Source: a virus (Duplodnaviria > Heunggongvirae > Uroviricota > Caudoviricetes). From it: a stretch of DNA of 64,000 nt. Shown in pieces: positions 772 through 60,330 of this stretch. The DNA lies in IMG/VR virus record IMGVR_UViG_2541047850_000005, positions 1-64,000 of that record, one strand, 5' to 3'. Within the stretch, counting starts at the first letter, position 1; the number at the start of each line of letters is the position of its first letter. The notes beneath the pieces are model-generated. The model did not search any database and was not told where the DNA came from. It saw only the letters and a program-made list of their open reading frames with translations. The translations under genes and the position numbers were made by a program.

Positions 772-1080
772 GTGACTCACATGACAAAAACAGTATCAAC
801 CAGTAAAAAACCCCGTAAACAGCATTCGCCTGAATTTCGCAGTGAAGCCCTGAAGCTTGCTGAACGCATCGGTGTTACTGCCGCAGCCCGTGAACTCAGC
901 CTGTATGAATCACTGCTCTACAACTGGCGCAGTAAACAGCAAAATCAGCAGACGTCTTCTGAACGTGAACTGGAGATGTCTACCGAGATTGCACGTCTCA
1001 AACGCCAGCTGGCAGAACGGGATGAAGAGCTGGCTATCCTCCAAAAGGCCGCGACATACTTCGCGAAGCGCCTGAAATGA
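772..1080 (+). CDS. insE: IS3 transposase OrfA (HTH DNA-binding subunit)
   Basis: 102-aa ORF, sequence matches remembered IS3 OrfA (..[34 protein letters not shown]..); leucine-zipper-like C-terminus. Confidence 0.9.
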
Positions 1081-1943
1081 AGTATGTCTTTATTGAAAAA
1101 CATCAGGCTGAGTTCAGCATCAAAGCAATGTGCCGCGTGCTCCGGGTGGCCCGCAGCGGCTGGTATACGTGGTGTCAGCGGCGGACAAGGATAAGCACGC
1201 GTCAGCAGTTCCGCCAACACTGCGACAGCGTTGTCCTCGCGGCTTTTACCCGGTCAAAACAGCGTTACGGTGCCCCACGCCTGACGGATGAACTGCGTGC
1301 TCAGGGTTACCCCTTTAACGTAAAAACCGTGGCGGCAAGCCTGCGCCGTCAGGGACTGAGGGCAAAGGCCTCCCGGAAGTTCAGCCCGGTCAGCTACCGC
1401 GCACACGGCCTGCCTGTGTCAGAAAATCTGTTGGAGCAGGATTTTTACGCCAGTGGCCCGAACCAGAAGTGGGCAGGAGACATCACGTACTTACATACAG
1501 ATGAAGGCTGGCTGTATCTGGCAGTGGTCATTGACCTGTGGTCACGTGCCGTTATTGGCTGGTCAATGTCGCCACGCATGACGGCGCAACTGGCCTGCGA
1601 TGCCCTACAGATGGCGCTGTGGCGGCGTAAGAGGCCCCGGAACGTTATCGTTCACACTGACCGTGGAGGCCAGTACTGTTCAGCAGATTATCAGGCGCAA
1701 CTGAAGCGGCATAATCTGCGTGGAAGTATGAGCGCAAAAGGTTGCTGCTACGATAATGCCTGCGTGGAAAGCTTCTTTCATTCGCTGAAAGTGGAATGTA
1801 TCCATGGAGAACACTTTATCAGCCGGGAAATAATGCGGGCAACGGTGTTTAATTATATCGAATGTGATTACAATCGGTGGCGGCGGCACAGTTGGTGTGG
1901 CGGCCTCAGTCCGGAACAATTTGAAAACCAGAACCTCGCTTAG
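1077..1943 (+). CDS. insF: IS3 transposase OrfB (DDE catalytic subunit)
   Basis: 288-aa ORF overlapping orfA stop (ATGA); DDE integrase-core motifs (..WAGDITYL.., ..HTDRGGQY.., ..DNACVESFF..). Confidence 0.9.
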
Positions 1944-2258
1944 ACCTGTGTCCATATTACGTGGGTAGGATCAATTTTCACCTAACTGAATAGCTCGCAT
2001 ATTCGTGAACCGACCAGCATCAGGATCTAGCAGTGTAGAGCGAATATCCTTTTCAACTAGATCTATGGCTCGCTCTTCATCAGAATCACAACCTGTTAAT
2101 AGTAAAGCCGCTATTAACAATGCTAATGAGTATTTTTTATTCACCCCATTCTTCATGAAACTTATTCCATAATCAATTTTTGGTGGAATGTACGGTTAGT
2201 CTGTCTACGCATCATAGAGATGTATATAATGACCAAAAAAGACTTAAAAAGGTAGACT

Positions 2259-2777
2259 ATGGTTAAAGACATCACCTACGGCATACCGGCTGAAGTCTGG
2301 CCGCGAGACTACGAACATGCTGAGCGCACCTTGCTCTTCTGGCGGAGTGCAAAATTTCCTGTAAGAGTCACTCTCGAAGACGGCCAAGTGTTTTGCATGT
2401 ATGTCTACGGGCTATTGAGCGCAAGAAATAAGCTGAACCTCACACCAGATCCGCTTAGCAACACAAATCGTATAAGGCTCCCTCTTGAGCGCATTAGCAC
2501 AATTGAGTCGGGCATAGAAGAGGTTGACACTTCATTCACAGGTCGACTAACGCTAAACAATGAACAGATGGTTAATCAGCCATCACGTCGTGACTTTTTT
2601 AAGATATGTCGTCAGGCTTACCAAAACGGCAAATCTATAAGGGTCTACATGGCAGACGGTCGCGAAATTGAGGGAACGTCAGATGGCGTTGACGCCTGTC
2701 TAGTCACACTTAAGTTGGAAGACGGTAGAAAAATACTTATTTTCTTCGATTGGGTTGAACGAATCCTTCCGTTTTAA
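2259..2777 (+). CDS. hypothetical protein (172 aa, internally repeated)
   Basis: ORF with upstream AT-rich promoter-like region; no recognised domain. Confidence 0.5.
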   Translation: MVKDITYGIPAEVWPRDYEHAERTLLFWRSAKFPVRVTLEDGQVFCMYVYGLLSARNKLNLTPDPLSNTNRIRLPLERISTIESGIEEVDTSFTGRLTLNNEQMVNQPSRRDFFKICRQAYQNGKSIRVYMADGREIEGTSDGVDACLVTLKLEDGRKILIFFDWVERILPF

Positions 2778-4258: not shown

Positions 4259-4844
4259 CGTTTCCAATACACCTACCATAACGCGCCAATGATGGCGCGT
4301 TTTTATTGTCTTTAACTCACTCCAACAACATAAAAATAAGCGCCAAAATAACGCCATAGACGCGATTTTATATCCTTGCCAGTACACACCCATTACTTAA
4401 CACATTAACGCGCTTAAAACGCGTTATATTGCGCTATAGAGTATGGTTAATCATTGGCTTTTAGTCTTGCTTTATGATCCGCGTTTATTTGTCGGCGCGG
4501 ATCGGCATTTTGTTTTGTTCCGTATCCGCTCGCGTATTATGTGCGCGTGATTTTTCACATAATCACACCACTTAATCACGTATGTGATTACGCTACGAAA
4601 GAAATCTGGATGTCTCAGGCGACGAAAGTCATAATAATTTTCCCCGCTCACCTGTCCGACAACCGCTGGTTGGATTCCACCAGCTTCCCGATGTTTTTTC
4701 TACATAAAGGCGAATGCAGCCGTTTCCCGAAAAAATCCTGGCCGTTTCCCGTCGGCTAATGAATACGTTCCTCGCCGTTTCTGAAAATTTCCCTACGGCA
4801 GCTGATGGATATAGAGAAAGGGCCGTTTCTGGCCCTCTTCTCAG

Positions 4845-5327
4845 TTACACGCCATCAAGGATGTGGATGCGGTTGCTTGCGTATACATTCAGCATAAAGT
4901 TAGCGCAAAACAGTTTCCATGTATCAACGCCAGCGGTATACGTAATGTTTTTGCATTTAATTGCATTGTTGGCGATCCGCATCCCCTGCGATACTGCTTC
5001 ATCGTCGGAAAATTTGAACGACGATTGAGTTTTAATCCAGACAGAAATCTGCGTAGCGAACTCAATCAGCTTGGACTGGCAGAATCGCCCGGAGCGCACC
5101 GGAAAGACGAACGTTCCGAATCCAGAATTTACCACATACGCTTTCTCAAATACCCGCGAGTAACGACGATTGCCAATGATGTCGCGTGCAATAATGCATT
5201 TTTCTTGTGCTGACAGTTCTACCGTCTCATTGTCGCGCCATGCACCAAGTACTCGTTTTTCAATGTCAGAGAACGTTACAGCGATATTGCCATGTGCGGG
5301 TGCGTTTACAGTAGCGATAAAATTCAT
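4845..5327 (-). CDS. hypothetical protein (160 aa)
   Basis: ATG at 5325..5327 with AAGGAA RBS; conserved AACAAATTGTTTTC motif upstream. Confidence 0.5.
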   Translation of the reverse strand: MNFIATVNAPAHGNIAVTFSDIEKRVLGAWRDNETVELSAQEKCIIARDIIGNRRYSRVFEKAYVVNSGFGTFVFPVRSGRFCQSKLIEFATQISVWIKTQSSFKFSDDEAVSQGMRIANNAIKCKNITYTAGVDTWKLFCANFMLNVYASNRIHILDGV

Positions 5328-5677
5328 GATTAATTCCTTATCGTAAATAACAAATTGTTTTCTTGTTGGCGTTAATTATCGTTGTACGAATAAGGCATCA
5401 AAGTGGAAAGTTGCGGTAGCCGGACGGGAACAGGTGGGTTTGTCGGTTGCCTGGAGGTAAGAGGTTGGTGTTTTTAGCCTGCGGGAAACAGGATGGTCAT
5501 TTAAGGCCACCAGCAGTGGTGGCCTTAATAATTATCGACCGATTACGCTAAGGATCTTTTCCTCAACTGATTTGTTGTTGCGACTAAACTGCCTTGCGTA
5601 TCTGATGACAGAAGAGGCGTTTTGCTTTCTGACTATCTCGGCTCTTTCCTTCAGGCGTTTCTTGAAATCGCCCATAT

Positions 5678-6052
5678 TTACCACCAGGCGCAGAAGGTCA
5701 GTCTGTTATTGTGAAAGTCGTGGTTCTTAATCAGCTCTTCCACAAGTTTTTTCAACTCCCCCACGTCATGCCAGTACCCTTCATCGTACTCCTGACTGCC
5801 GAAGAAAAAACCTTCACAGGTAGGTAAGTACTCTTCGCAGTTACTTTCGTTCATGTGCATCAAATGAGCTTTCAGAGCACAAATGTCATTCATCGTTAAT
5901 TCTAAAAGCTCACAATTTTTGACTTCACCTACGTTGCGTTCCATCCACCCAAAGAGAGCATTGAACTTACGGAAGTAAGCAACCTTCTTTCTGGATGCAT
6001 CGTTATTCAGATCGTTTTTTGGTTGCGTCTCAATGTAGATATCAAGTCCCAT
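5678..6052 (-). CDS. hypothetical protein (124 aa, Cys/His-containing)
   Basis: ATG start with AAGGAAACC RBS and upstream palindromic motif. Confidence 0.5.
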   Translation of the reverse strand: MGLDIYIETQPKNDLNNDASRKKVAYFRKFNALFGWMERNVGEVKNCELLELTMNDICALKAHLMHMNESNCEEYLPTCEGFFFGSQEYDEGYWHDVGELKKLVEELIKNHDFHNNRLTFCAWW

Positions 6053-6170
6053 GATGGTTTCCTTATCAAGTTGCTTTCAGTGAAAGCATTTTCACAAATC
6101 AGATAAGGCAGAAAACAAATTGTTATCGGGCATAAGAAAATGGCGCGGTTTACGCGCCATTCAAAGAGGA

Positions 6171-6566
6171 TTAAGCGAATACGCTTTCAGGGATTAAGGT
6201 GTCAGCAGGAATGCCGGAGGTAATGCGCAGACCATACTGACCAATCCAGGTAGTGTTAGTGTTCAGACTGGAAGCGAATACGGTGTTAACCATATTCATC
6301 ATGGTTTCAAACACCTCTTTATTCACCTTACGGAAGTAACTTTCAATTTTCAACAACAACGGGTCCGTTGCATCAAAAATGGACTGATATTGCGCCTCAT
6401 ATTCCCCGCCTGATGTATCTCCTTTACGCACAATAGTACTTGCCTGAACTTCAGTTCCAGTTTCGGTGTTGTACGTAACGACGGTGATTTTAGCTACATT
6501 CTTACCTTCGGCGCTTTCTGAAGCATAGTAGACATCAACTGTCAGGTTTTCTCGTTTAACGCTCAT
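6171..6566 (-). CDS. hypothetical protein (131 aa; start moved to internal ATG with GGAGAG RBS)
   Basis: ORF track 6171..6578; ATG at 6566 has a better Shine-Dalgarno. Confidence 0.5.
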   Translation of the reverse strand: MSVKRENLTVDVYYASESAEGKNVAKITVVTYNTETGTEVQASTIVRKGDTSGGEYEAQYQSIFDATDPLLLKIESYFRKVNKEVFETMMNMVNTVFASSLNTNTTWIGQYGLRITSGIPADTLIPESVFA

Positions 6567-6692
6567 ATCACTCTCCATAGTGTCTTGGTTATTTTTCTAT
6601 TTTATAGACATAGGTATGTACTTACAATACAAAAAAAACCCGTAAGGATGGCGGGGCTGTCGTACTGTCGACTAATTACCACTTGCACATTA

Positions 6693-7004
6693 TCAGGCTA
6701 TTGCCATCACTGATGCTCTCTGAATCTCTTGCTGGGCCACGCGGTTAACTTCCATCAAAGCCAGTTCGAGCTGATGTTCCGGCCACATTCTTTGAAATGC
6801 CATCCAGCCTTTTCCACGCTGGCGACGAACATTCATTACATAACGAGTAAAGGTGTTTTTATCGAAAGACACCGCTGTTTCACGGAACAGACGAATAGAG
6901 GTTCCATTGGCAACGATGTCCAGCAAAGTTAATTGAGCAACCAGCGCAGGCTTCTCTTTTCTCTTCTGGTCTTTGTCCAGACCAAGAACCAATGATTTTT
7001 TCAT
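6693..7004 (-). CDS. hypothetical protein (103 aa; ATG start MKKSLVLG)
   Basis: track ORF begins at a TTG; in-frame ATG at 7004 has GGAG RBS and the conserved motif just upstream. Confidence 0.5.
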   Translation of the reverse strand: MKKSLVLGLDKDQKRKEKPALVAQLTLLDIVANGTSIRLFRETAVSFDKNTFTRYVMNVRRQRGKGWMAFQRMWPEHQLELALMEVNRVAQQEIQRASVMAIA

Positions 7005-7157
7005 CACAACTCCGTAAACAACTTGTTTTCTCAATGTCGTAAATAATACCAGTAAGAAAACGGCTACAAAGCATATTGATCAGGTGCATGAGCGATATGC
7101 AGGTTCTTCCCTGCGGCTATAGAGAAATTAAGCCAGCAATGCTGGCTTTGGTTGGGA

Positions 7158-7487
7158 TTACGCGAATACCTCAAGAAACTCCTGAACGTCCCAATGCTGG
7201 ACGAGGTGAAGATAGACCTTAGAAATCACGTCATTTTCACTATCGCATGTGAAGTAGTACTTCTGGCTGCGGTTGTATGTGTCCACACAAAATTCGCTCA
7301 TATCCATAAAGTCAGCATCTTCACCCATGTCGCAAATCATCAAAGCAGGTGCGTCATCACGAGTCATCAGCTCCAGCACCCATATTGAATTAATCAGAGT
7401 GGAAGACCAACCTTCCAGCTCATAAAACTGGTCAAACTCTTTTTGAGTCAATTTCTTAATTTGGTTGATGTCGATATTTGCAAACAT
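7158..7487 (-). CDS. hypothetical acidic protein (109 aa; start MFANIDIN)
   Basis: in-frame ATG at 7487 preceded by AAGGAT RBS and the conserved motif. Confidence 0.5.
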   Translation of the reverse strand: MFANIDINQIKKLTQKEFDQFYELEGWSSTLINSIWVLELMTRDDAPALMICDMGEDADFMDMSEFCVDTYNRSQKYYFTCDSENDVISKVYLHLVQHWDVQEFLEVFA

Positions 7488-7626
7488 AAAGCAATCCTTA
7501 AACATGTTGTTTTCTGAATTACGTAAACAATACCAGTAAGAAAACGGCCACAAAGTATATCGTTACGGTGCTGCGCTGCCCCGGAGGTTAATAGCGACAA
7601 AAGCCACCGTGCTGGTGGCCTCACTC

Positions 7627-7845
7627 TTAATCTTGGTCGTCCGGGAACTCGCTGTGTACCGCGCCAACCAGCTCCCGCTTTTCATCTTCACTCAGCAGGT
7701 GCCAGATATCCTTCCCTTTGGGCGATTCCCCTTCTGCCGGGACGAACGACCACAACTTGCGGTACAACTCCGGCCCCACTGCATCCAGACACTCAGCCAG
7801 GGAATCCACGCCCCACACCTCAACCGTCACAGGCATCTTAATCAT
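7627..7845 (-). CDS. hypothetical small protein (72 aa)
   Basis: ORF with GAGGA RBS. Confidence 0.45.
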   Translation of the reverse strand: MIKMPVTVEVWGVDSLAECLDAVGPELYRKLWSFVPAEGESPKGKDIWHLLSEDEKRELVGAVHSEFPDDQD

Positions 7846-8439
7846 CTCTTCATCCTCACTTCGTTTCTATAACGTCTAAATATGCTGTTTACTTGTTGGT
7901 GTTATTATCGCAATAAGACAAAGGCGAAAAAGGATTTTATGTCGGGAAAGCCAGGCTGGGCAGTGAATATCCGGGAACGACACGAGAGCCAGTATTTACG
8001 ATATTCTGCTCTACGCACGCCGCGGGGCTGGTGGGCAGAATAATCCTCTCCCCGAAAACCTACTGAAATCGATTGTGACCCGCTGGCTGTCTGGCACAAT
8101 TACGCTGTATCTGGCATTCAGAGGGAATCCAGCGGTAAGCAAGTCAGCCTGCACGTGAGCGTCTCTCTTCTTCCCGCACATTACAGGTGGGTAGCTGCAA
8201 CTCTCTCTCGCTATACCGGTACGCCGCCGTTCCTGAACCGGCATCGAGCCTTTTCCCGAAATCCACACAGGCAACTCGACCGTTTCCCTGAAAATCCCCA
8301 GCCGTTTCTGTAGCGTATGCAACCTTTTCTCTGTATGGACCGAAGGCTGACCGTAGGGGTGTTACGGGGGATGATGGTAAGATGTTGAATAAATACGAAA
8401 AAGGAGGCGACACCCCTCCTTCCCTCCCCACTTATACAT

Positions 8440-9300
8440 ACCTTGCTTCTTCGCTATACATGTTGTGTTTTCTTCGTGTTTTATCTGTCTCAACCTCTCT
8501 ATAGGCGTTAATGCTTACTCCTTCCAGAACGTTCTATACGGCGACTATTTCTGTTGGTGAATTGGGTGTGTTGTTTTCTCTGTCGATGTATGTGGTTTCG
8601 TTCGTTTTGCGGTGGTTCTTCTATGGGGTGTTCTCGTCGTTTTGGTGATTGTTCTTCTCCGTGTATGGAGTAATGGCAGGTGGGCGATTCCTTTCGTTAT
8701 TGTGTTTGAGTTGTTTGTCTGGAGTGTGTGAAGGGCTTTTGTAGTTATTCGTGTATTGGGTAATGGCGTTTCCCGTGATTGTTATGTTTCGTGTCTTTTG
8801 GGATTGAGAGAAACCTTGCGGTTACAGGCTTCGTTGGGGTTTCAGCGGTTCAGGTGTTTCTTCGCTGTTTGGGTAATGGCGTGTCGTGGGTATCGCGCGT
8901 ATGAATGTTTTCGGATTGCCTGTGAAAGTTAGGTTGGTTATCCGGTAGCCTGGGAAGAAGAGGTGGGGTCTTTTCGGTAGCCTGCCATAAAGAGGTTGGT
9001 TGTTTTGGGTAATGGCATATGTGTTATTTGGTTGTTTTGTTATGCCTGAAAATAAGTTGTTTATATGGTTGTGTAACGCAACGGGAGCGATTTTGAGCGT
9101 GTGTTTTTGTTGGTAGTGTGTTGAGTCGTCTGTGGTGAAAATTGGACGCTGTGGAGCTGTCTGCTGCGTAGGTTTACGGGTATAAGAAGTGATGTGTGAA
9201 AACGTCAATTTTTTAGACCAAATCGGGAGAAAGCGTTGATGTTTCGTTGATCTGTTATTTAGTTGTTTTCTTATTGGTATAAACAACTGTAACCTATTGA
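8440..9300. repeat. strongly G+T-skewed non-coding tract with degenerate ~100-135 bp repeats (recurring GGGTAATGGC core)
   Basis: plus strand nearly devoid of C/A runs; GGGTAATGGC-like core recurs at ~8664, ~8762, ~8872, ~9008; CGGTAGCCTG repeated twice. Confidence 0.5.
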
Positions 9301-9414
9301 TATTTAAGGATGTGATTGCAGGCATGGAAGGGGAGTAGTGGCGATCAACGGATTCTTATAGAAAAGAATCAAATTGTGACCGCCATTATCAACGGTTTGA
9401 ATATGTTTGCAGAT

Positions 9415-9714
9415 TTACCAGTTCCAGCACTCAAGCCCTTCAACGACCGGCGCACCACAATCAAAATGTACAGAGTCAAAGCCTACATCAAGTACTTTCT
9501 GAATGTTAGCAATCGCGCCTTCGGATATACCATATCGACGCAAGTCGTCTTTCCAGACATCATCCTGTAACCCGGCGTGGACAATACAACCGCCATCAAT
9601 TTGTGAAACCCAATCCAGCTCATTGCTTGCGATCATGAATCGGCGAGCATCTTCCTCTGATGTATGAGATGAACTGATCAATGCCACCTGGTAGGCTTGG
9701 GTAATGTTCAACAT
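9415..9714 (-). CDS. hypothetical protein (99 aa; start MLNITQ)
   Basis: in-frame ATG with GGAG RBS; two copies of conserved motif upstream (9727..9790). Confidence 0.5.
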   Translation of the reverse strand: MLNITQAYQVALISSSHTSEEDARRFMIASNELDWVSQIDGGCIVHAGLQDDVWKDDLRRYGISEGAIANIQKVLDVGFDSVHFDCGAPVVEGLECWNW

Positions 9715-9823
9715 TTCAACCACTCCAAAACAAGTTGTTTTCTTATGTGGCTTATTATCTCTAACAACAAAAGGCAGAAAACAAATTGTTTTAGGTACTG
9801 TGTAAATCAGAAGGGATTGTGTC

Positions 9824-9875: not shown

Positions 9876-11909
9876 TTACTTAACCTGGTGACCAGGTTTA
9901 GCACCAGCATCCGGGCTTAACAGGAAGATATCTTTCCCACCAGGACCAGCAGCCATCACCATGCCTTCTGAGATACCGAAACGCATTTTACGCGGAGCCA
10001 GGTTAGCCACCATAATGGTGTGACGACCAATCAGTGCCTGTGGGTCTGGATAAGCAGAACGAATGCCGGAGAAGACATTACGCTTTTCCCCACCGAGATC
10101 CAGTGTCAGACGCAGCAGTTTGTCAGAGCCTTCAACAAACTCCGCGTTTTCAATCAGCGCCACACGCAGGTCAACTTTGGCGAAGTCGTCAAAGGTGATG
10201 GTTTCCTGAATCGGGTCGTCAGCCAGTGGGCCAGTTACCGGTGCGGCTGTGGCTTTCACTTCTTCTTTGGATGCTTCCACCAGTGCTTCCACCTGTTTCA
10301 TATCGATGCGGTTATACAGCGCCTTGAACGGATTCACTTTGTGGCCCAGCAGCGGTTGCTGGATACCATCCCAGGTCAGTTCTGTATTGAGGAATGCTTC
10401 TGCGCGCTCGGTCAGTTTCGGCAGTACCGGTTTCAGGTAAGTCATCAGCACGCGGAACAGGTTAATGCCCATAGAGCAAATCGCCTGCAGATCGGCATCG
10501 CGACCTTCCTGCTTCGCCACCACCCACGGAGCCTGTTCATCGACATAGCGGTTAGCCAGGTCAGCCAGTGCCATGATTTCACGGATAGCTTTACCAAATT
10601 CGCGGCTTTCCCATGCTTCGCCAATCACTTCAGCGGCATCAGTAAAGGTTTTGTACAGTTGCGGGTCAGCCAGTTCGCTTGCCAGCACGCCGTCAAAACG
10701 CTTGTTGATAAAGCCTGCATTACGGGAGGCCAGGTTAACCACTTTGTTCACGATATCGGCATTCACTCGCTGAACGAAATCTTCCAGGTTGAGATCGATA
10801 TCATCAATGCGCGAAGAGAGTTTCGCAGTGTAGTAGTAACGCAGGCTGTCGGCGTCAAAATGATTCAGCCAGGTGCTGGCTTTAATGAACGTGCCGCGAG
10901 ACTTGGACATCTTCGCACCGTTCACCGTCACATAGCCATGAACAAACAGGTTGGTCGGCTTGCGGAAGTTGCTGCCTTCCAGCATGGCAGGCCAGAACAG
11001 GCTGTGGAAGTAAACGATATCTTTACCGATGAAGTGGTACAGCTCGGCGGTGGAGTCTTTCTTCCAGTATTCATCGAAGCTGGAGGTGTCGCCGCGTTTG
11101 TCGCACAGATTCTTGAAGGAACCCATGTAGCCAATCGGCGCGTCCAGCCAGACGTAGAAATATTTGCCCGGCGCGTTCGGAATTTCAAAACCGAAATAAG
11201 GGGCGTCGCGGGAGATATCCCACTGTTGCAGGCCAGATTCAAACCACTCCTGCATTTTATTTGCCACCTGCTCCTGCAACGCACCGCTGCGGGTCCATGC
11301 CTGCAGCATTTCGCTGAAAGAAGGCAGATCAAAGAAGAAGTGTTCGGAATCACGCATTACCGGCGTAGCACCAGAAACTACCGATTTCGGCTCGATCAGT
11401 TCAGTCGGGCTGTAAGTCGCGCCGCAGACTTCACAGTTATCGCCGTATTGATCTGGCGCTTTACATTTAGGGCAGGTGCCTTTTACAAAACGGTCCGGCA
11501 GGAACATGCCTTTTTCCGGGTCGTATAACTGAGAGATGGTGCGGTTTTTAATAAAACCGTTCTCTTTCAGGCGAGTATAAATAAGCTCGGACAACTGACG
11601 GTTCTCTTCGCTGTGCGTCGAGTGATAGTTGTCATAGCTGATGTTAAAGCCTGCAAAATCAGTCTGGTGTTCCTGACTCATTTCGCCAATCATCTGTTCC
11701 GGTGTGATACCAAGCTGCTGTGCTTTCAGCATGATCGGTGTGCCGTGGGCATCGTCGGCACAGATGAAATTAACCTCGTGGCCGCGCATTCGCTGGTAAC
11801 GAACCCAGACATCAGCCTGGATGTGCTCCAGCATATGGCCGAGGTGGATTGAGCCGTTAGCGTACGGCAGCGCGCACGTCACCAGAATTTTCTTCGCGAC
11901 TTGGGTCAT
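9876..11909 (-). CDS. metG: methionine--tRNA ligase
   Basis: 677-aa product starting [26 protein letters not shown] (HIGH motif), KMSKS motif, C-terminal tRNA-binding domain; track ORF extends upstream of the true ATG. Confidence 0.95.
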
Positions 11910-12066: not shown

Positions 12067-13167
12067 ATGAGCGAGTCCAAATCGCCGGATGCCCTGAGAG
12101 CAATGGTAGCCGGTACGCTGGCTAATTTTCAGCACCCAACCCTGAAACACAACCTGACTACGCTTAAAGCGTTACACCATGTTGCGTTGATGGATGACAC
12201 ACTGCATGTCGAACTAATCATGCCTTTCGTGTGGAATAAGCCTTTTGAAGACCTGAAAGAGCAATGTAGTGGTGATCTGCTCCGTATCACTGGCGCAAAG
12301 GCTATCGACTGGAAGCTGTCGTACAACATTGCCACGCTTAAGCGCGTCAAAAACCAACCAGGCATTAATGGCGTTAAGAACATTATCGCCGTCAGCTCAG
12401 GCAAGGGCGGCGTTGGTAAATCCTCCACGGCGGTAAACCTGGCACTGGCGTTGGCTGCTGAAGGTGCGAAAGTTGGTATTTTGGATGCCGATATCTACGG
12501 GCCATCAATTCCAACCATGCTTGGCGCGGAAAACCAACGTCCAACCTCACCGGACGGTACTCACATGGCACCGATTATGTCTCATGGACTGGCAACCAAT
12601 TCAATTGGTTATCTGGTAACTGACGACAATGCGATGGTGTGGCGTGGTCCGATGGCGAGCAAGGCGTTAATGCAGATGTTGCAGGAAACTCTATGGCCTG
12701 ATCTGGACTATCTCGTTCTCGATATGCCGCCGGGTACTGGTGATATTCAGCTGACGCTGGCGCAGAACATTCCTGTAACTGGTGCTGTTGTGGTAACTAC
12801 GCCGCAAGATATCGCGCTGATCGATGCGAAGAAAGGCATTGTGATGTTCGAAAAAGTCGAAGTGCCGGTACTGGGTATCGTCGAAAACATGAGTGTGCAT
12901 ATTTGCAGTAACTGCGGTCATCACGAGCCAATTTTTGGCACCGGTGGCGCACAGAAACTGGCCGAGAAATACAACACGCAGTTGTTAGGCCAAATGCCAC
13001 TTCATATCTCTCTTCGTGAAGATCTGGATAACGGAACACCAACCGTTATTAGTCGTCCAGATAGCGAATTTACGGCTATTTATCGTGACCTTGCAGATCG
13101 CGTTGCTGCCCAAATGTATTGGCAAGGTGAAGTAATACCTGGCGAAATCGCATTCCGCGCAGTGTGA
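12067..13167 (+). CDS. apbC: Fe-S cluster carrier ATPase ApbC/Mrp
   Basis: P-loop SSGKGGVGKSSTAVNLA, CxxC motif (HICSNCGH), divergent from metG as in enterobacteria. Confidence 0.9.
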   Translation: MSESKSPDALRAMVAGTLANFQHPTLKHNLTTLKALHHVALMDDTLHVELIMPFVWNKPFEDLKEQCSGDLLRITGAKAIDWKLSYNIATLKRVKNQPGINGVKNIIAVSSGKGGVGKSSTAVNLALALAAEGAKVGILDADIYGPSIPTMLGAENQRPTSPDGTHMAPIMSHGLATNSIGYLVTDDNAMVWRGPMASKALMQMLQETLWPDLDYLVLDMPPGTGDIQLTLAQNIPVTGAVVVTTPQDIALIDAKKGIVMFEKVEVPVLGIVENMSVHICSNCGHHEPIFGTGGAQKLAEKYNTQLLGQMPLHISLREDLDNGTPTVISRPDSEFTAIYRDLADRVAAQMYWQGEVIPGEIAFRAV

Positions 13168-13632: not shown

Positions 13633-13751
13633 TACATTAAAGAAGCACCTTTGGTGCATTAGAGAAATGCAAAACGATAATAGAGGCTAAATCGAGGTAG
13701 AAAACACATTGTTTAAGGCCACTAATTGTGGCCTTAATGGAGAGGGGATGC

Positions 13752-59385: not shown

Positions 59386-59943
59386 GGCTAATCCTTTGTT
59401 ATGAAAACAAATTATTTACTAGTATGTTTAATGTAGCACTGCGCGAACAGGGAACTAAGCCATTCGCGCAGGTAGCAGAGGGGTTAACAGGTTCTGACGG
59501 CTAAAGAGCCAGAGCCGGTATTGATAAGCGTGAAGCGTTTGTTATTAAGTAGGAATATAAAGGCTGTTGCGTCATGCATACCAACCTGAATCTGCTCATT
59601 TGGTAATTCGGTGAGAATGTCAGCTACACATTCATCAGCTAATTTTTCAACGTGTCCGATCTCAAGAGTGATTAGGCTGGAAATAGTTGTTTTCATTCAA
59701 TCAATCCATTCTAACTTAAAATATGGTAGGGAGTACTATTAAATCTTATATCATAATTGAACTTATCTATATCATATCTGAGTTAGTTTTGTTACATGTT
59801 ATTAGTCGTTTTTCTCCATTAATGAATGCTGATTGGTTAATATTTGTGCCTGTAGAAAAAATGATTATATCTTTACAACCCTAACCTTTGATGTAATATC
59901 GGTAAGCACTTACCAGAGAGTTTAACGCGCAAAGGTCGCAATA

Positions 59944-60330
59944 ATGTCTGACAAAAACATTGAATTTATAGAAAGTCGCTATGCTGCTTTTATCGCAGGG
60001 CTGATTGAATCCTCACCTATGAGTCAGGCCCAAATAGCCAGACTTATTGGTTATAAAAATGCCAACAACCTTTCTTTAATTAAAAGTGGTAAAATTCCTT
60101 TGCCTATCGATAAGGTTCGTCCGCTGGCGTTGGCGCTGGGTATTGAGCCAAGTCGTCTTATGATGATGGTGCTGGAAGAACGCCAACCTGAACTCGCAGC
60201 ATTTTTATACAAAGAAGGCACCGCTCCTCTTAACGAGGACGAAAAACAGGTTCTTGCTGCATATAACGAGCGATTCGGTAAAGAGAAAGGCGCATCACAA
60301 AAGGTTGTTGAGGCCATAAAGTCTCTATGA
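59944..60330 (+). CDS. HTH (XRE/Cro-CI-like) DNA-binding protein
   Basis: ..SQAQIARLIGYKNANNLSLIKSGK.. helix-turn-helix; convergent with and overlapping the integrase 3' end. Confidence 0.65.
   Translation: MSDKNIEFIESRYAAFIAGLIESSPMSQAQIARLIGYKNANNLSLIKSGKIPLPIDKVRPLALALGIEPSRLMMMVLEERQPELAAFLYKEGTAPLNEDEKQVLAAYNERFGKEKGASQKVVEAIKSL

What the first reader, a model, noticed from the sequence alone, without database searches (positions are those of the whole stretch)
4845..9714. Cluster of co-oriented small genes of unknown function downstream of metG (possible anti-defence or leading-region-like cargo)
Seven to eight short minus-strand ORFs (72-160 aa), each with its own copy of the conserved motif and RBS, have no domain I can recognise. 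The pattern of many small, individually promoted genes next to a G+T-skewed tract resembles the early/leading regions of phages and plasmids, where anti-restriction and other anti-defence proteins are concentrated.
Basis: inference. Interest (0 to 1): 0.5.

Follow-up and report, generated by a model that had tools for sequence, protein, structure and literature searches.

The report
Small-gene cassette array in a phage-plasmid
The flagged stretch is the variable tail of the early-gene arm of an SSU5/pHCM2-type phage-plasmid, holding eight real small genes of unknown function, most in their own promoter-operator-terminator cassettes, around a conserved 1.5 kb non-coding element; an anti-defence role is possible but has no direct support.

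Summary
The window is not a chromosome. It is an SSU5/pHCM2-like phage-plasmid, 99.8% identical to Escherichia phage PhiR41_1, and metG is carried by the element.

Eight small minus-strand ORFs (47-160 aa) are real genes: seven have strong PHROG families, and dN/dS is 0.05-0.41 wherever dS was measurable. The two ORFs at 8011-8431 and 8822-9325 are spurious. They lie in a conserved ~1.5 kb non-coding element with a promoter-like site, a ~750-nt C+A-rich tract and 22-bp iterons.

Most genes are autonomous cassettes: terminator hairpin, 17-bp palindrome GAAAACAA-N-TTGTTTTC, extended -10 promoter, RBS, ORF. The palindrome also marks seven more promoters along the ~55 kb early arm, so it defines a regulon. 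Cassettes are gained, lost and swapped at these shared modules.

In a published lysogen transcriptome the genes are near background. None matches Pfam (except DUF5983), NCBIfam, PADLOC or PDB. Two confident AlphaFold models have no structural neighbour.

The "conjugative leading region" reading is rejected, because 97% of carrier plasmids are non-mobilizable. "Phage early accessory region" is supported. "Anti-defence" is untested.

The parts
9415..9714 (-). o99: 99-aa acidic protein, DUF5983 family (YeeW-like; unknown function)
   Evidence: Pfam PF19419 scores 42.6 bits against a cut-off of 27. phrog_5003 at 2e-49. Present in 8 of 9 compared elements.
9726..9793 (-). Two-operator promoter of o99. 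Palindrome 9777-9793 is centred about -42, the extended -10 GATAAT is at 9754-9759, and palindrome 9726-9742 lies at about +5 to +21, directly before the RBS.
   Evidence: The same 51-bp centre-to-centre arrangement occurs in SSU5, Cyrano, Enterobacter and K. oxytoca relatives.
7850..9410 (-). Conserved ~1.5 kb non-coding element. It contains a promoter-like TTGACG-18-TATACC (9208-9179), an internal palindrome (9048-9064), a C+A-rich tract (~9170-8450), a hairpin (8424-8398) and iteron array A1.
   Evidence: It is 68-74% identical across SSU5, Klebsiella and Enterobacter elements, with no conserved frame. PGAP calls no gene in the corresponding stretch of a 95.5%-identical plasmid. No Rfam hit. 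It matches 835 plasmids, none from Yersinia. As RNA it is weakly structured: -123 kcal/mol over 786 nt, z -1.5.
8226..8336 (-). Iteron array A1: five copies of TTYCRG-GRAAMGG-CYGG spaced 21, 22, 31 and 22 bp here (22, 22, 22, 31 and 22 bp in the six-copy arrays of relatives).
   Evidence: Conserved in E. coli, Salmonella, Klebsiella, Enterobacter and K. oxytoca.
7627..7845 (-). o72: 72-aa acidic protein. Its promoter module is at ~7876-7925, with GATAAT at 7904-7909 and a degenerate palindrome at 7876-7892.
   Evidence: phrog_6757 at 2e-44. dN/dS 0.09-0.19. The palindrome is intact in relatives. The whole cassette is absent from Cyrano, with the junction inside the palindrome.
7158..7487 (-). 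o109: 109-aa very acidic protein (pI 4.1), found only in the E. coli lineage. Operator at 7498-7514; extended -10 TGgTATTGT at 7527-7535.
   Evidence: phrog_7645 at 4e-75..
6693..7004 (-). o103: 103-aa basic protein (pI 10.5), core gene. Operator at 7014-7030; extended -10 TGgTATTAT at 7043-7051.
   Evidence: phrog_5125 at 2e-63. Present in all lineages except pMT1.
6171..6566 (-). o131: 131-aa acidic protein, core gene, with its own TTGTAA-17-TAAAAT promoter (6627-6599) and no palindrome.
5678..6052 (-). o124: 124-aa protein from a very large uncharacterised family (MGLD..YWRK.N..H.W..LLPT..GFFFGS.EYD..Y..AWW). Operator at 6111-6127, -10 GAAAAT at 6088-6093, and a degenerate second palindrome at 6061-6077.
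   Evidence: 2,422 cluster representatives at E<=1e-3. No Pfam or PDB match, even with a 67-sequence profile. phrog_7971.
5532..5675 (-). o47: 47-aa basic ORF that starts 2 nt after the o124 stop. It is followed by a strong hairpin containing a Chi sequence.
   Evidence: Its Cyrano homologue CYRAN_109 is 6-fold above background in the lysogen.
4845..5327 (-). o160: 160-aa basic protein, the most conserved gene of the array. Operator at 5346-5362, GATAAT at 5375-5380, and a conserved ACCTCTT..CAGGCWACCG unit at ~5414-5480.
4719..4836 (-). Iteron array A2: four copies of the same GRAAMGG iteron directly after o160. The first copy lies in the o160 terminator hairpin.
   Evidence: Conserved in all lineages, including Y. 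pestis pMT1.

Best explanation
The region is the hyperplastic (variable) end of the early, DNA-metabolism arm of an SSU5/pHCM2-type phage-plasmid.

Architecture. It holds eight genuine small genes. Most are built as self-contained cassettes:
- an upstream terminator hairpin;
- one or two copies of a 17-bp palindromic operator, GAAAACAA-N-TTGTTTTC;
- an extended -10 promoter (TGnGATAAT or TGgTATTRT) placed so the operator covers about +5 to +21, with a second inverted copy centred near -42 in two-operator promoters;
- a Shine-Dalgarno sequence immediately after the operator;
- the ORF, then its own terminator.

Regulation. The same operator sits at seven or more other promoters along the ~55 kb leftward arm. 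The cassettes therefore belong to one element-wide regulon. That regulon is off while the element is a plasmid and is presumably switched on after induction or infection.

Evolution. Because the regulatory modules are near-identical, they act as recombination anchors, and cassettes are inserted, deleted and replaced individually.

Products. The proteins are small, soluble and mostly acidic or basic, with no known relatives. Their most likely role is as accessory early proteins that bind host or competitor components, for host take-over, anti-defence or exclusion. The specific activities are unknown.

Shown versus inferred. Shown here: gene reality, cassette anatomy, motif enrichment, mosaic exchange, and absence of known homologues. 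Taken from the literature: low expression in the lysogen. Inferred: operator function, early-lytic timing, and the protein role.
For: Identity of the element:
- 99.8% to phage PhiR41_1; matches phage Cyrano and 245 E. coli plasmids.
- Terminase, portal and tape-measure genes and repA lie on the same replicon.

Genes are real:
- PHROG hits and dN/dS 0.05-0.41 where dS was measurable.

Cassette anatomy:
- Hairpins follow every transcription unit.
- The conserved module is ...TGCGATAAT-N11-12-GAAAACAAnTTGTTTA-AGGAG-N5-8-ATG, seen in seven elements including a K. oxytoca relative whose o160 is only 33% identical.
- The composite GATAAT-N9-14-AAAACAA occurs 2 times against 0.02 expected.

Regulon:
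- 24 matches against 1.4 expected.
- All good sites lie upstream of minus-strand genes between 5.3 and 59.4 kb.

Mosaicism, window versus Cyrano:
- dS is 0-0.02 for o160, o103 and o99, but 0.68 for o131 and 0.24 for o124.
- Indels are cassette-sized (+760, -340, +460 nt) with junctions at the modules; one lies inside the palindrome.
- Gene content differs between lineages.

Silent in the lysogen (LF82/Cyrano FPKM):
- Most cluster genes are 5-25, against 96 for the repressor. Only CYRAN_109 and CYRAN_102 exceed 5-fold over background.
- Cyrano is induced 39-fold by ciprofloxacin.

Dispensable for plasmid life:
- Y. pestis pMT1 keeps only c4 and o160.
Against: - No transcription start sites, and no expression data after induction or infection, exist for these genes. 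Early-lytic timing is an inference from position, the shared motif and silence in lysogeny.
- The protein that binds the palindrome was not identified. The intergenic region next to the XRE-type repressor lacks the motif.
- The palindrome could act as an activator site, or as an RNA element in the 5' UTR, rather than as a repressor operator.
- o131 lacks the motif, and o47 is expressed in the lysogen, so the array is not uniformly regulated.
- The array is bracketed by two iteron arrays and follows a peculiar non-coding element. This may mean the genes serve a replication or other DNA-level function rather than host interaction.
Confidence: 0.65

Rival explanations
1. Anti-defence island. One or more of the small proteins inhibit host restriction or other immune systems when the phage-plasmid DNA enters a new cell.
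For: - The proteins are small, several are acidic (pI 4.1-5.0), each has its own promoter, and they sit in an early arm.
- Cassette content is variable, as expected for arms-race genes.
- SSU5-group elements carry almost no recognised anti-defence genes, so unrecognised ones are plausible.
- The array lies 8-11 kb from the conventional genome end, just upstream of the terminase genes. If packaging runs from there toward the head genes, this end would be injected first. That is inference only.
Against: - No match to any library or solved structure.
- o160 and o131 have confident models with no ArdA, ArdB or Ocr-like neighbour, or any other.
- The core genes are highly conserved: o160 is 100% identical across many E. 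coli elements and dN/dS is low. There is no sign of diversifying selection.
- No functional data exist.
Confidence: 0.25
2. Replication or DNA-handling module. The non-coding element (promoter, C+A-rich tract, 22-bp iterons) is a lytic origin or other DNA-level control site. Some array proteins, such as the basic o160 or o103, would bind the two flanking iteron arrays.
For: - Two same-orientation arrays of a 22-bp iteron bracket the genes and are conserved in all lineages.
- A conserved promoter-like site reads into the strand-asymmetric tract. The composition is kept even where the sequence is not alignable.
- The element is absent from pMT1, which lives as a plasmid.
- The element encodes its own dnaE, toprim protein, helicase and RNase H.
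Against: - No DnaA boxes and no AT-rich unwinding element.
- No initiator-sized gene is adjacent; repA lies about 35 kb away with no such iterons.
- The proteins are too small and show no DNA-binding domain signature.
- The variable cassette content fits accessory genes better.
Confidence: 0.15
3. Lysogenic-conversion cargo (classical morons, toxin-antitoxin or exclusion genes) expressed from the resident plasmid for the benefit of the host.
For: - The promoter-gene-terminator architecture fits.
- o47 (CYRAN_109) and the Cyrano-specific CYRAN_102 cassette are about 6-fold above background in the lysogen.
- A Klebsiella SSU5-like plasmid lowers plating of lytic phages 10-100-fold; the responsible gene is unknown.
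- DUF5983 neighbours CbtA toxins in chromosomal islands.
Against: - Six of the eight homologues sit at 0.6-2.7 times background in the lysogen.
- No TA or defence model matches.
- No cbtA or cbeA gene lies next to the DUF5983 gene here.
Confidence: 0.1
4. Conjugative-plasmid leading region, or chance ORFs.
For: The ORFs are co-oriented, small, and lie near a strand-skewed tract.
Against: - 777 of 804 carrier plasmids are non-mobilizable.
- The replicon encodes a complete siphovirus.
- The ORFs have PHROG families and are under purifying selection.
Confidence: 0.02

Closest known systems
Hyperplastic regions with PeSL 'mobile regulatory cassettes' of T4-type phages (Arbiol et al. 2010, PMC2839356)
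   Same: Both have runs of small non-essential ORFs of unknown function. Each ORF is flanked by a conserved unit of a stem-loop terminator plus a sigma-70-type early promoter. Differences between close relatives are cassette-sized indels and replacements whose junctions lie in those units.
   Different: Here the unit also carries a 17-bp palindromic operator, sometimes two spaced 51 bp apart. That ties the cassettes to an element-wide regulon that is off in the plasmid state. The host element is a temperate siphovirus phage-plasmid rather than a virulent myovirus. PeSL mini-circles were not and could not be examined.
Morons of lambdoid prophages (promoter-gene-terminator units); named from established knowledge
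   Same: Both are autonomous transcription units inserted between other genes, and their content varies between relatives.
   Different: Morons are defined by expression from the repressed prophage. Most of these cassettes are near background in the lysogen, and they share one operator.
Dispersed C1-operator regulon of phage-plasmid P1; from established knowledge, not tested here
   Same: Both are phage-plasmids in which one short operator sequence recurs upstream of many scattered lytic-cycle operons.
   Different: The P1 operator is asymmetric and its repressor (C1) is known. Here the site is a perfect palindrome, its binder is unidentified, and the sites are especially dense (one per gene) in the small-gene array.
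Leading-region anti-defence islands of conjugative plasmids, and pre-early or early regions of phages T5 and T7
   Same: All have many short, individually promoted, co-oriented genes. The array possibly lies near the DNA end that enters first, but that is inference only.
   Different: There is no oriT or relaxase context, and 97% of carriers are non-mobilizable. No ardA, klcA, psiB, ssb or ocr homologue is present, and no fold match was found for the two proteins modelled.
DUF5983 / YeeW-like proteins next to CbtA-CbeA in CP4-44-type islands
   Same: o99 passes the Pfam gathering threshold.
   Different: No cbtA or cbeA gene lies nearby. Here the gene sits behind a two-operator phage promoter, just after metG.

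Membership tests
Conjugative-plasmid leading region (anti-defence island) | Lies next to oriT on a conjugative or mobilizable plasmid and enters the recipient first | tested here: not met
   777 of 804 plasmids with the o160 gene are typed non-mobilizable. The replicon carries terminase, portal, capsid and tail genes.
Conjugative-plasmid leading region (anti-defence island) | Contains known leading-region genes (ssb, psiB, ardA, klcA and similar) | tested here: not met
   No Pfam or NCBIfam hits except DUF5983.
Conjugative-plasmid leading region (anti-defence island) | Single-strand promoters (Frpo/ssi hairpins) | not tested
   Not examined. The promoters seen are ordinary double-strand extended -10 types.
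Known anti-restriction / anti-defence protein families (ArdA, ArdB/KlcA, Ocr and others) | Sequence homology to a described family | tested here: not met
   Pfam, NCBIfam, PHROGs (all 'unknown function') and PDB sequence searches were negative. A published DefenseFinder v1.3.0 (defence and anti-defence) screen of 1,227 SSU5 contigs found only Rad, in a minority.
Known anti-restriction / anti-defence protein families (ArdA, ArdB/KlcA, Ocr and others) | Fold similarity to a solved anti-defence protein | tested here: not met
Known anti-restriction / anti-defence protein families (ArdA, ArdB/KlcA, Ocr and others) | Inhibits a defence system in vivo | not testable with these tools
   Requires experiments.
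PeSL-type mobile regulatory cassettes / hyperplastic region | Small ORFs of unknown function, each flanked by a conserved promoter plus stem-loop terminator unit | tested here: met
   Hairpins after metG, o72, o109, o103, o131, o47 and o160. Conserved promoter modules upstream. Promoter and terminator activity itself was not measured.
PeSL-type mobile regulatory cassettes / hyperplastic region | Indels and replacements between close relatives have junctions in the regulatory units | tested here: met
   Window versus Cyrano: +760 nt at 9415, -340 nt at 7904-7544 (junction inside the palindrome), +460 nt at 5530. dS ranges from 0 to 0.68 between adjacent cassettes.
Moron | Expressed from the repressed prophage | tested here: not met
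   In the LF82 lysogen transcriptome, six of eight homologues are at 0.6-2.7 times background. Only the o47 homologue reaches 6-fold.
Dispersed-operator lytic regulon (P1 C1-type) | One operator sequence recurs at many promoters of lytic-cycle operons | tested here: met
   24 matches against 1.4 expected, at 13 or more promoter-proximal positions between 5.3 and 59.4 kb, all on the gene strand. Conserved in relatives.
Dispersed-operator lytic regulon (P1 C1-type) | An identified repressor binds the operator | tested here: inconclusive
   The intergenic region next to the XRE-type repressor (59944-60330) lacks the palindrome. The FljA-family protein (2259-2777) is a candidate only by proximity.
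DUF5983 (PF19419) | Passes the Pfam gathering score | tested here: met
   o99 scores 42.6 bits against a cut-off of 27, E 7.6e-11.
Iteron-type replication origin | Array of direct repeats about 20-22 bp apart | tested here: met
   Arrays A1 (5-6 copies) and A2 (3-4 copies) have a predominantly 22-bp period.
Iteron-type replication origin | Adjacent initiator gene, DnaA boxes and an AT-rich unwinding element | tested here: not met
   repA is about 35 kb away. There are no DnaA boxes or windows of at least 80% AT in the element.

The most novel reading that the evidence does not exclude
The array and its 1.5 kb non-coding partner might form one early 'take-over' unit of SSU5-type phage-plasmids. 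On entry or induction, a conserved promoter would fire a ~750-nt, almost structure-free C+A-rich RNA. That RNA could act as a decoy or loading platform, for example for Rho or Hfq, or as the trigger of a transcription-activated lytic origin marked by the 22-bp iterons. The operator-controlled cassettes would meanwhile deliver new-fold proteins, including new anti-defence or host-hijacking factors. None of this is excluded by the data, and none of it is shown.
Probability: 0.1. Interest if true: 0.75.

Novelty: new variant of a known kind. Interest (0 to 1): 0.4.

Why it matters
SSU5/pHCM2-type phage-plasmids are common in clinical Enterobacteriaceae. More than 800 sequenced plasmids carry this locus, including relatives in S. 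Typhi, Shigella sonnei, Klebsiella and Y. pestis pMT1, and these elements carry resistance genes.

- Almost nothing is known about their regulation. The shared palindromic operator gives a concrete handle on the lytic regulon.
- The cassette array is a defined, compact set of eight candidate host-interaction genes to screen. Two have confident models with no structural neighbour in PDB (one also searched against BFVD), and one belongs to a family of more than 2,400 clusters with no annotation.
- Known anti-defence genes are nearly absent from this group, so this is a sensible place to look for new ones.

As it stands, the finding is a well-organised but typical block of phage 'dark matter'.

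Tried and rejected
**Searches that found nothing**
- Pfam, NCBIfam and PADLOC on all ten ORFs: nothing except DUF5983.
- PHROGs: families found, all of unknown function.
- PDB sequence searches for seven proteins and one 67-sequence profile: nothing.
- Rfam, at gathering and permissive thresholds: nothing.

**Searches that were too shallow**
- The word-indexed homologue searches for o131 and o99 returned only 13 and 11 close relatives. DUF5983 could therefore not be modelled with a deep alignment.

**Ideas rejected**
- ORFs 8011-8431 and 8822-9325 as genes. Their frames break in close relatives.
- A chromosomal island downstream of host metG.
- A conjugative leading region.
- The non-coding element as the plasmid origin or centromere. 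repA is elsewhere, and the element is absent from the Yersinia plasmids that carry o160, pMT1 included.
- The palindrome as the operator of the XRE repressor. It is absent from that repressor's own control region.
- The palindrome as a stable RNA hairpin. The stem is almost all A-U, variant sites show no compensatory changes, and copies also lie at about -42. This is an argument, not a test.
- Homology of the element's 5' part in large Klebsiella plasmids near psiA as a functional clue. These are truncated phage-plasmid fragments next to DUF262 and type I R-M genes.
- GATC depletion as a conserved feature. It is strong in this window (O/E 0.16-0.33) but weak in relatives.
- Chi enrichment as specific to the tract. 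It holds across the whole window.

- A 2026 preprint on phage-plasmid heteroresistance could not be opened.

Full report
**What the window is**

The 5.2 kb around the finding is 99.8% identical to Escherichia phage PhiR41_1 and 92-98% identical to phages CMS-2020a and Cyrano. It matches 245 E. coli plasmids and no chromosome, plus 752 plasmids of Klebsiella, Escherichia, Enterobacter, Yersinia, Salmonella and others.

Annotated relatives carry tape-measure, capsid, portal and terminase genes. They also carry repA, dnaE, nrdAB, thyA and recA. The window is therefore an SSU5/pHCM2-type phage-plasmid, and metG and apbC are part of the element, as annotated in its relatives.

The finding lies at the far end of a ~55 kb run of minus-strand genes for DNA metabolism and replication. 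It faces a convergent plus-strand group: a 216-aa ORF, two small ORFs, and an FljA-family protein at 2259-2777 (Pfam Flag1_repress, 1e-68).

**Checking the observation**

Ten minus-strand ORFs of 47-167 aa fall in 4845-9714.

- Seven have strong PHROG families, all labelled unknown function.
- The 47-aa ORF has no PHROG family. It is conserved in E. coli relatives and starts 2 nt after the 124-aa gene's stop.
- dN/dS against orthologues in SSU5, Klebsiella and Cyrano is 0.05-0.41 wherever dS was measurable. It could not be computed for o103 in any comparison, and for DUF5983 only against Cyrano (0.27), because dS was saturated or zero. The eight are taken as real genes.

The ORFs at 8011-8431 and 8822-9325 are not genes. 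They have no family, their frames are broken in relatives that are 90-99% identical at the DNA level, and PGAP annotates no gene in the corresponding stretch of a 95.5%-identical plasmid.

That stretch (7850-9410) is nevertheless 68-74% identical to SSU5, Klebsiella and Enterobacter elements. It is a conserved non-coding element that contains the G+T-skewed tract. On the minus strand the tract is A 0.40, C 0.30, G 0.13, T 0.17.

**The motif and the cassette anatomy**

It has 24 matches with up to 2 mismatches, against 1.4 expected, and no shuffle reaches 24.

Good sites lie upstream of minus-strand genes at 5346, 6111, 7014, 7498, 9726 and 9777 within the finding. Further sites are at 13700, 18783, 23326, 24055, 34273, 45726 and 59403.

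Seven related elements, including a K. oxytoca plasmid whose o160 is only 33% identical, give this consensus:

[hairpin]-TTAAACAAnTTGTTTTCTrCCTTTTnTTATyTG-(a/t)GATAAT-aacrCCAAyAA-GAAAACAAnTTGTTTA-AGGAG-N5-8-ATG

This reads as an extended -10 promoter (TGnGATAAT, or TGgTATTRT for o103 and o109). One palindrome starts 11-12 nt after the -10 element, at roughly +5 to +21 and abutting the Shine-Dalgarno sequence. In two-operator promoters an inverted copy lies 51 bp upstream, centre to centre.

Every transcription unit ends in a hairpin.

Exceptions:
- o131 has no palindrome but has a TTGTAA-17-TAAAAT promoter.
- The o72 copy is degenerate in this window.
- o47 rides on o124.

The palindrome is more likely a DNA operator than an RNA hairpin. 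The stem would be almost all A-U, variant sites show no compensating changes, and copies also sit upstream of the -10 element. That is an argument, not a test.

**Who binds it**

This was not resolved. The XRE-type repressor (59944-60330, next to the integrase) has different repeats in its own control region and no palindrome there.

The FljA-family protein is nearby. FljA-type proteins block translation of fliC mRNA, so this one could equally be a lysogenic-conversion factor acting on host flagellin.

**Expression**

The published LF82 transcriptome of the resident Cyrano phage-plasmid gives these homologue values in FPKM:

| Gene | FPKM |
|---|---|
| o99 | 7.5 |
| o109 | 12.8 |
| o103 | 12.2 |
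| o131 | 17.0 |
| o124 | 5.7 |
| c4 | 6.7 |
| o160 | 25.5 |
| Repressor (CYRAN_45) | 96 |

Background is about 9.6. Only CYRAN_109 (the o47 homologue, 58) and the Cyrano-specific cassette CYRAN_102 (57) pass the authors' 5-fold cut-off. The ORFs called inside the non-coding element are at 5 and 14. Cyrano virion production rises 39-fold with ciprofloxacin.

The array is therefore essentially off in the plasmid state. Expression after induction has not been measured by anyone, as far as the held literature shows.

**Mosaic evolution**

Gene content differs between lineages.
- Core genes: o99, o131, o103, o72 and o160.
- Variable genes: o124 and o47. o109 is restricted to E. coli.
- A 93-116-aa cassette (c4) present in six relatives is missing here.

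Between this window and Cyrano, synonymous divergence jumps from 0-0.02 (o160, o103, o99) to 0.24 (o124) and 0.68 (o131).

The three indels are cassette-sized, with ends at the regulatory modules:
- +760 nt right after o99;
- -340 nt removing o72, with the junction inside the palindrome;
- +460 nt after the o47 terminator.

This is the pattern described for PeSL 'mobile regulatory cassettes' in the hyperplastic regions of T4-type phages, with an operator added.

**What the proteins are**

Nothing known.
- Pfam finds only DUF5983 for o99. That family sits next to CbtA toxins in CP4-44-type islands, and its function is unknown.
- NCBIfam and PADLOC find nothing.
- PDB sequence searches find nothing.

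o124 belongs to a very large uncharacterised family: 2,422 representatives at E<=1e-3. A 67-sequence profile has no Pfam or PDB match.

A published DefenseFinder v1.3.0 (defence and anti-defence) screen of 1,227 SSU5-group contigs found only Rad, in 16-22% of Escherichia and Shigella contigs. The core genes here are therefore not known anti-defence genes.

**Interpretation**

The best-supported reading is a hyperplastic block of early accessory cassettes under an element-wide operator.

The conjugative 'leading region' analogy fails: 777 of 804 carriers are non-mobilizable.

The anti-defence idea remains open.
- For it: the proteins are small and often acidic, the genes are individually promoted and variable, and the group has few known anti-defence genes.
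- Also for it, by inference only: the array lies 8-11 kb from the conventional genome end, just upstream of the terminase genes, possibly the end injected first.
- Against it: the core genes are strongly conserved, and nothing resembles a known inhibitor.

**The non-coding element**

Its features, in order on the minus strand:
- two CGTTGAT repeats;
- a half-palindrome plus ATCAACG..TCAACG;
- a conserved TTGACG-18-TATACC;
- an internal full palindrome;
- about 750 nt of C+A-rich sequence carrying repeated GCCATTACCCA and ACCnACCTCTT-N-CAGGCTACCG units, the latter also found ~138 nt upstream of o160 in every lineage;
- a hairpin at 8424-8398;
- an array of five or six 22-bp-period iterons (TTYCRG-GRAAMGG-CYGG).

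A second array of three or four copies of the same iteron follows o160, so the two arrays bracket the genes.

The K. oxytoca relative keeps this order and the C+A-rich composition although the sequence is not alignable. That points to selection on composition, that is, on an unstructured strand. As RNA the tract folds weakly: -0.16 kcal/mol per nt, z -1.5.

The element is missing from all Yersinia plasmids, although 55 of them keep o160. It is therefore not needed for plasmid maintenance. It has no DnaA boxes, no AT-rich block and no Rfam match.

A lytic origin or an RNA-level function are both conceivable. Neither is shown.

**Verdict**

The gene count and 'each has the motif' need correcting, and the genomic context was misjudged.

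This is a phage early accessory region, not a plasmid leading region, and an anti-defence role is unproven.

Interest is moderate. The block is typical phage dark matter, though in a clinically widespread element, with an unusually clean regulatory architecture and an unexplained conserved non-coding partner.

Noticed in passing
window 7850-9410 (minus strand): A conserved ~1.5 kb non-coding element sits inside the finding. It has a promoter-like TTGACG-18-TATACC, a ~750-nt C+A-rich G-poor tract predicted to be nearly unstructured, and repeated GCCATTACCCA and ACCTCTT..CAGGCTACCG units. A distant K. oxytoca relative keeps the composition and order without alignable sequence. The element is present in 835 plasmids and absent from Yersinia pMT1.
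   Followed up: partly
window 8226-8336 and 4719-4836: Two same-orientation arrays of a 22-bp-period iteron (core GRAAMGG; 5 and 4 copies) bracket the small-gene array. They are conserved in all lineages examined. The binder is unknown, and they are not near repA.
   Followed up: partly
window 2259-2777 (+): A phage-plasmid gene of the FljA family (repressor of phase-1 flagellin; Pfam 1e-68) is conserved across SSU5-type elements. FljA-type proteins block fliC mRNA translation, so this could silence host flagellin during lysogeny, or it could be a regulator of the element.
   Followed up: partly
whole window; copies at 4677(-), 5507(-), 7611(+), 8027(+) near the cluster: The Chi sequence GCTGGTGG occurs 13 times in 64 kb against 1.4 expected. 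Two copies sit inside terminator hairpins of the cassettes (after o47 and o72). The K. oxytoca relative has an inverted Chi pair at the equivalent place.
   Followed up: partly
window 772-1943, with flanking ORFs 95-700 and 1971-2156 (minus strand): An IS3-family element (orfA and orfB) appears to split a lipoprotein gene that is a single 801-nt CDS in PhiR41_1. The 61-aa piece carries the lipobox LTGC.
   Followed up: no
window 9876-11909 (-) and 12067-13167 (+): The phage-plasmid carries its own full-length methionyl-tRNA synthetase (metG) and an ApbC/Mrp Fe-S carrier gene. ApbC (CYRAN_99) is 9-fold above background in the LF82 lysogen.
   Followed up: no
window 5532-5675 (-): The homologue of the 47-aa basic ORF is about 10-fold more abundant in the lysogen than the gene it is coupled to (58 against 5.7 FPKM). 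This suggests an internal promoter or a stable 3' fragment ending in the strong Chi-containing hairpin.
   Followed up: no
window 4500-9500: GATC is about 3-6-fold depleted here (O/E 0.16-0.33, the lowest in the window; median 1.1), while other palindromes are not. The depletion is only slight in relatives (2.6-3.6 against 3.6-4.1 per kb), so it is probably not functional.
   Followed up: yes
L013 (K. quasipneumoniae pKP20-558-2) 4900-5230; L014 (K. pneumoniae pF10AN_1) 5000-5800: Truncated copies of the 5' part of the non-coding element occur in large IncFIB/IncHI1B Klebsiella plasmids, next to a DUF262 gene, type I R-M genes and (in L013) psiA. They look like relics of phage-plasmid and plasmid recombination.
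   Followed up: partly
window 59484-60330: This is the probable immunity region. An XRE-type 128-aa repressor lies next to the integrase, with a 70-aa divergent ORF. The intergenic region has ATGATATA-type direct repeats rather than the palindrome. The palindrome at 59403 precedes the first large gene (702 aa) of the leftward arm.
   Followed up: partly
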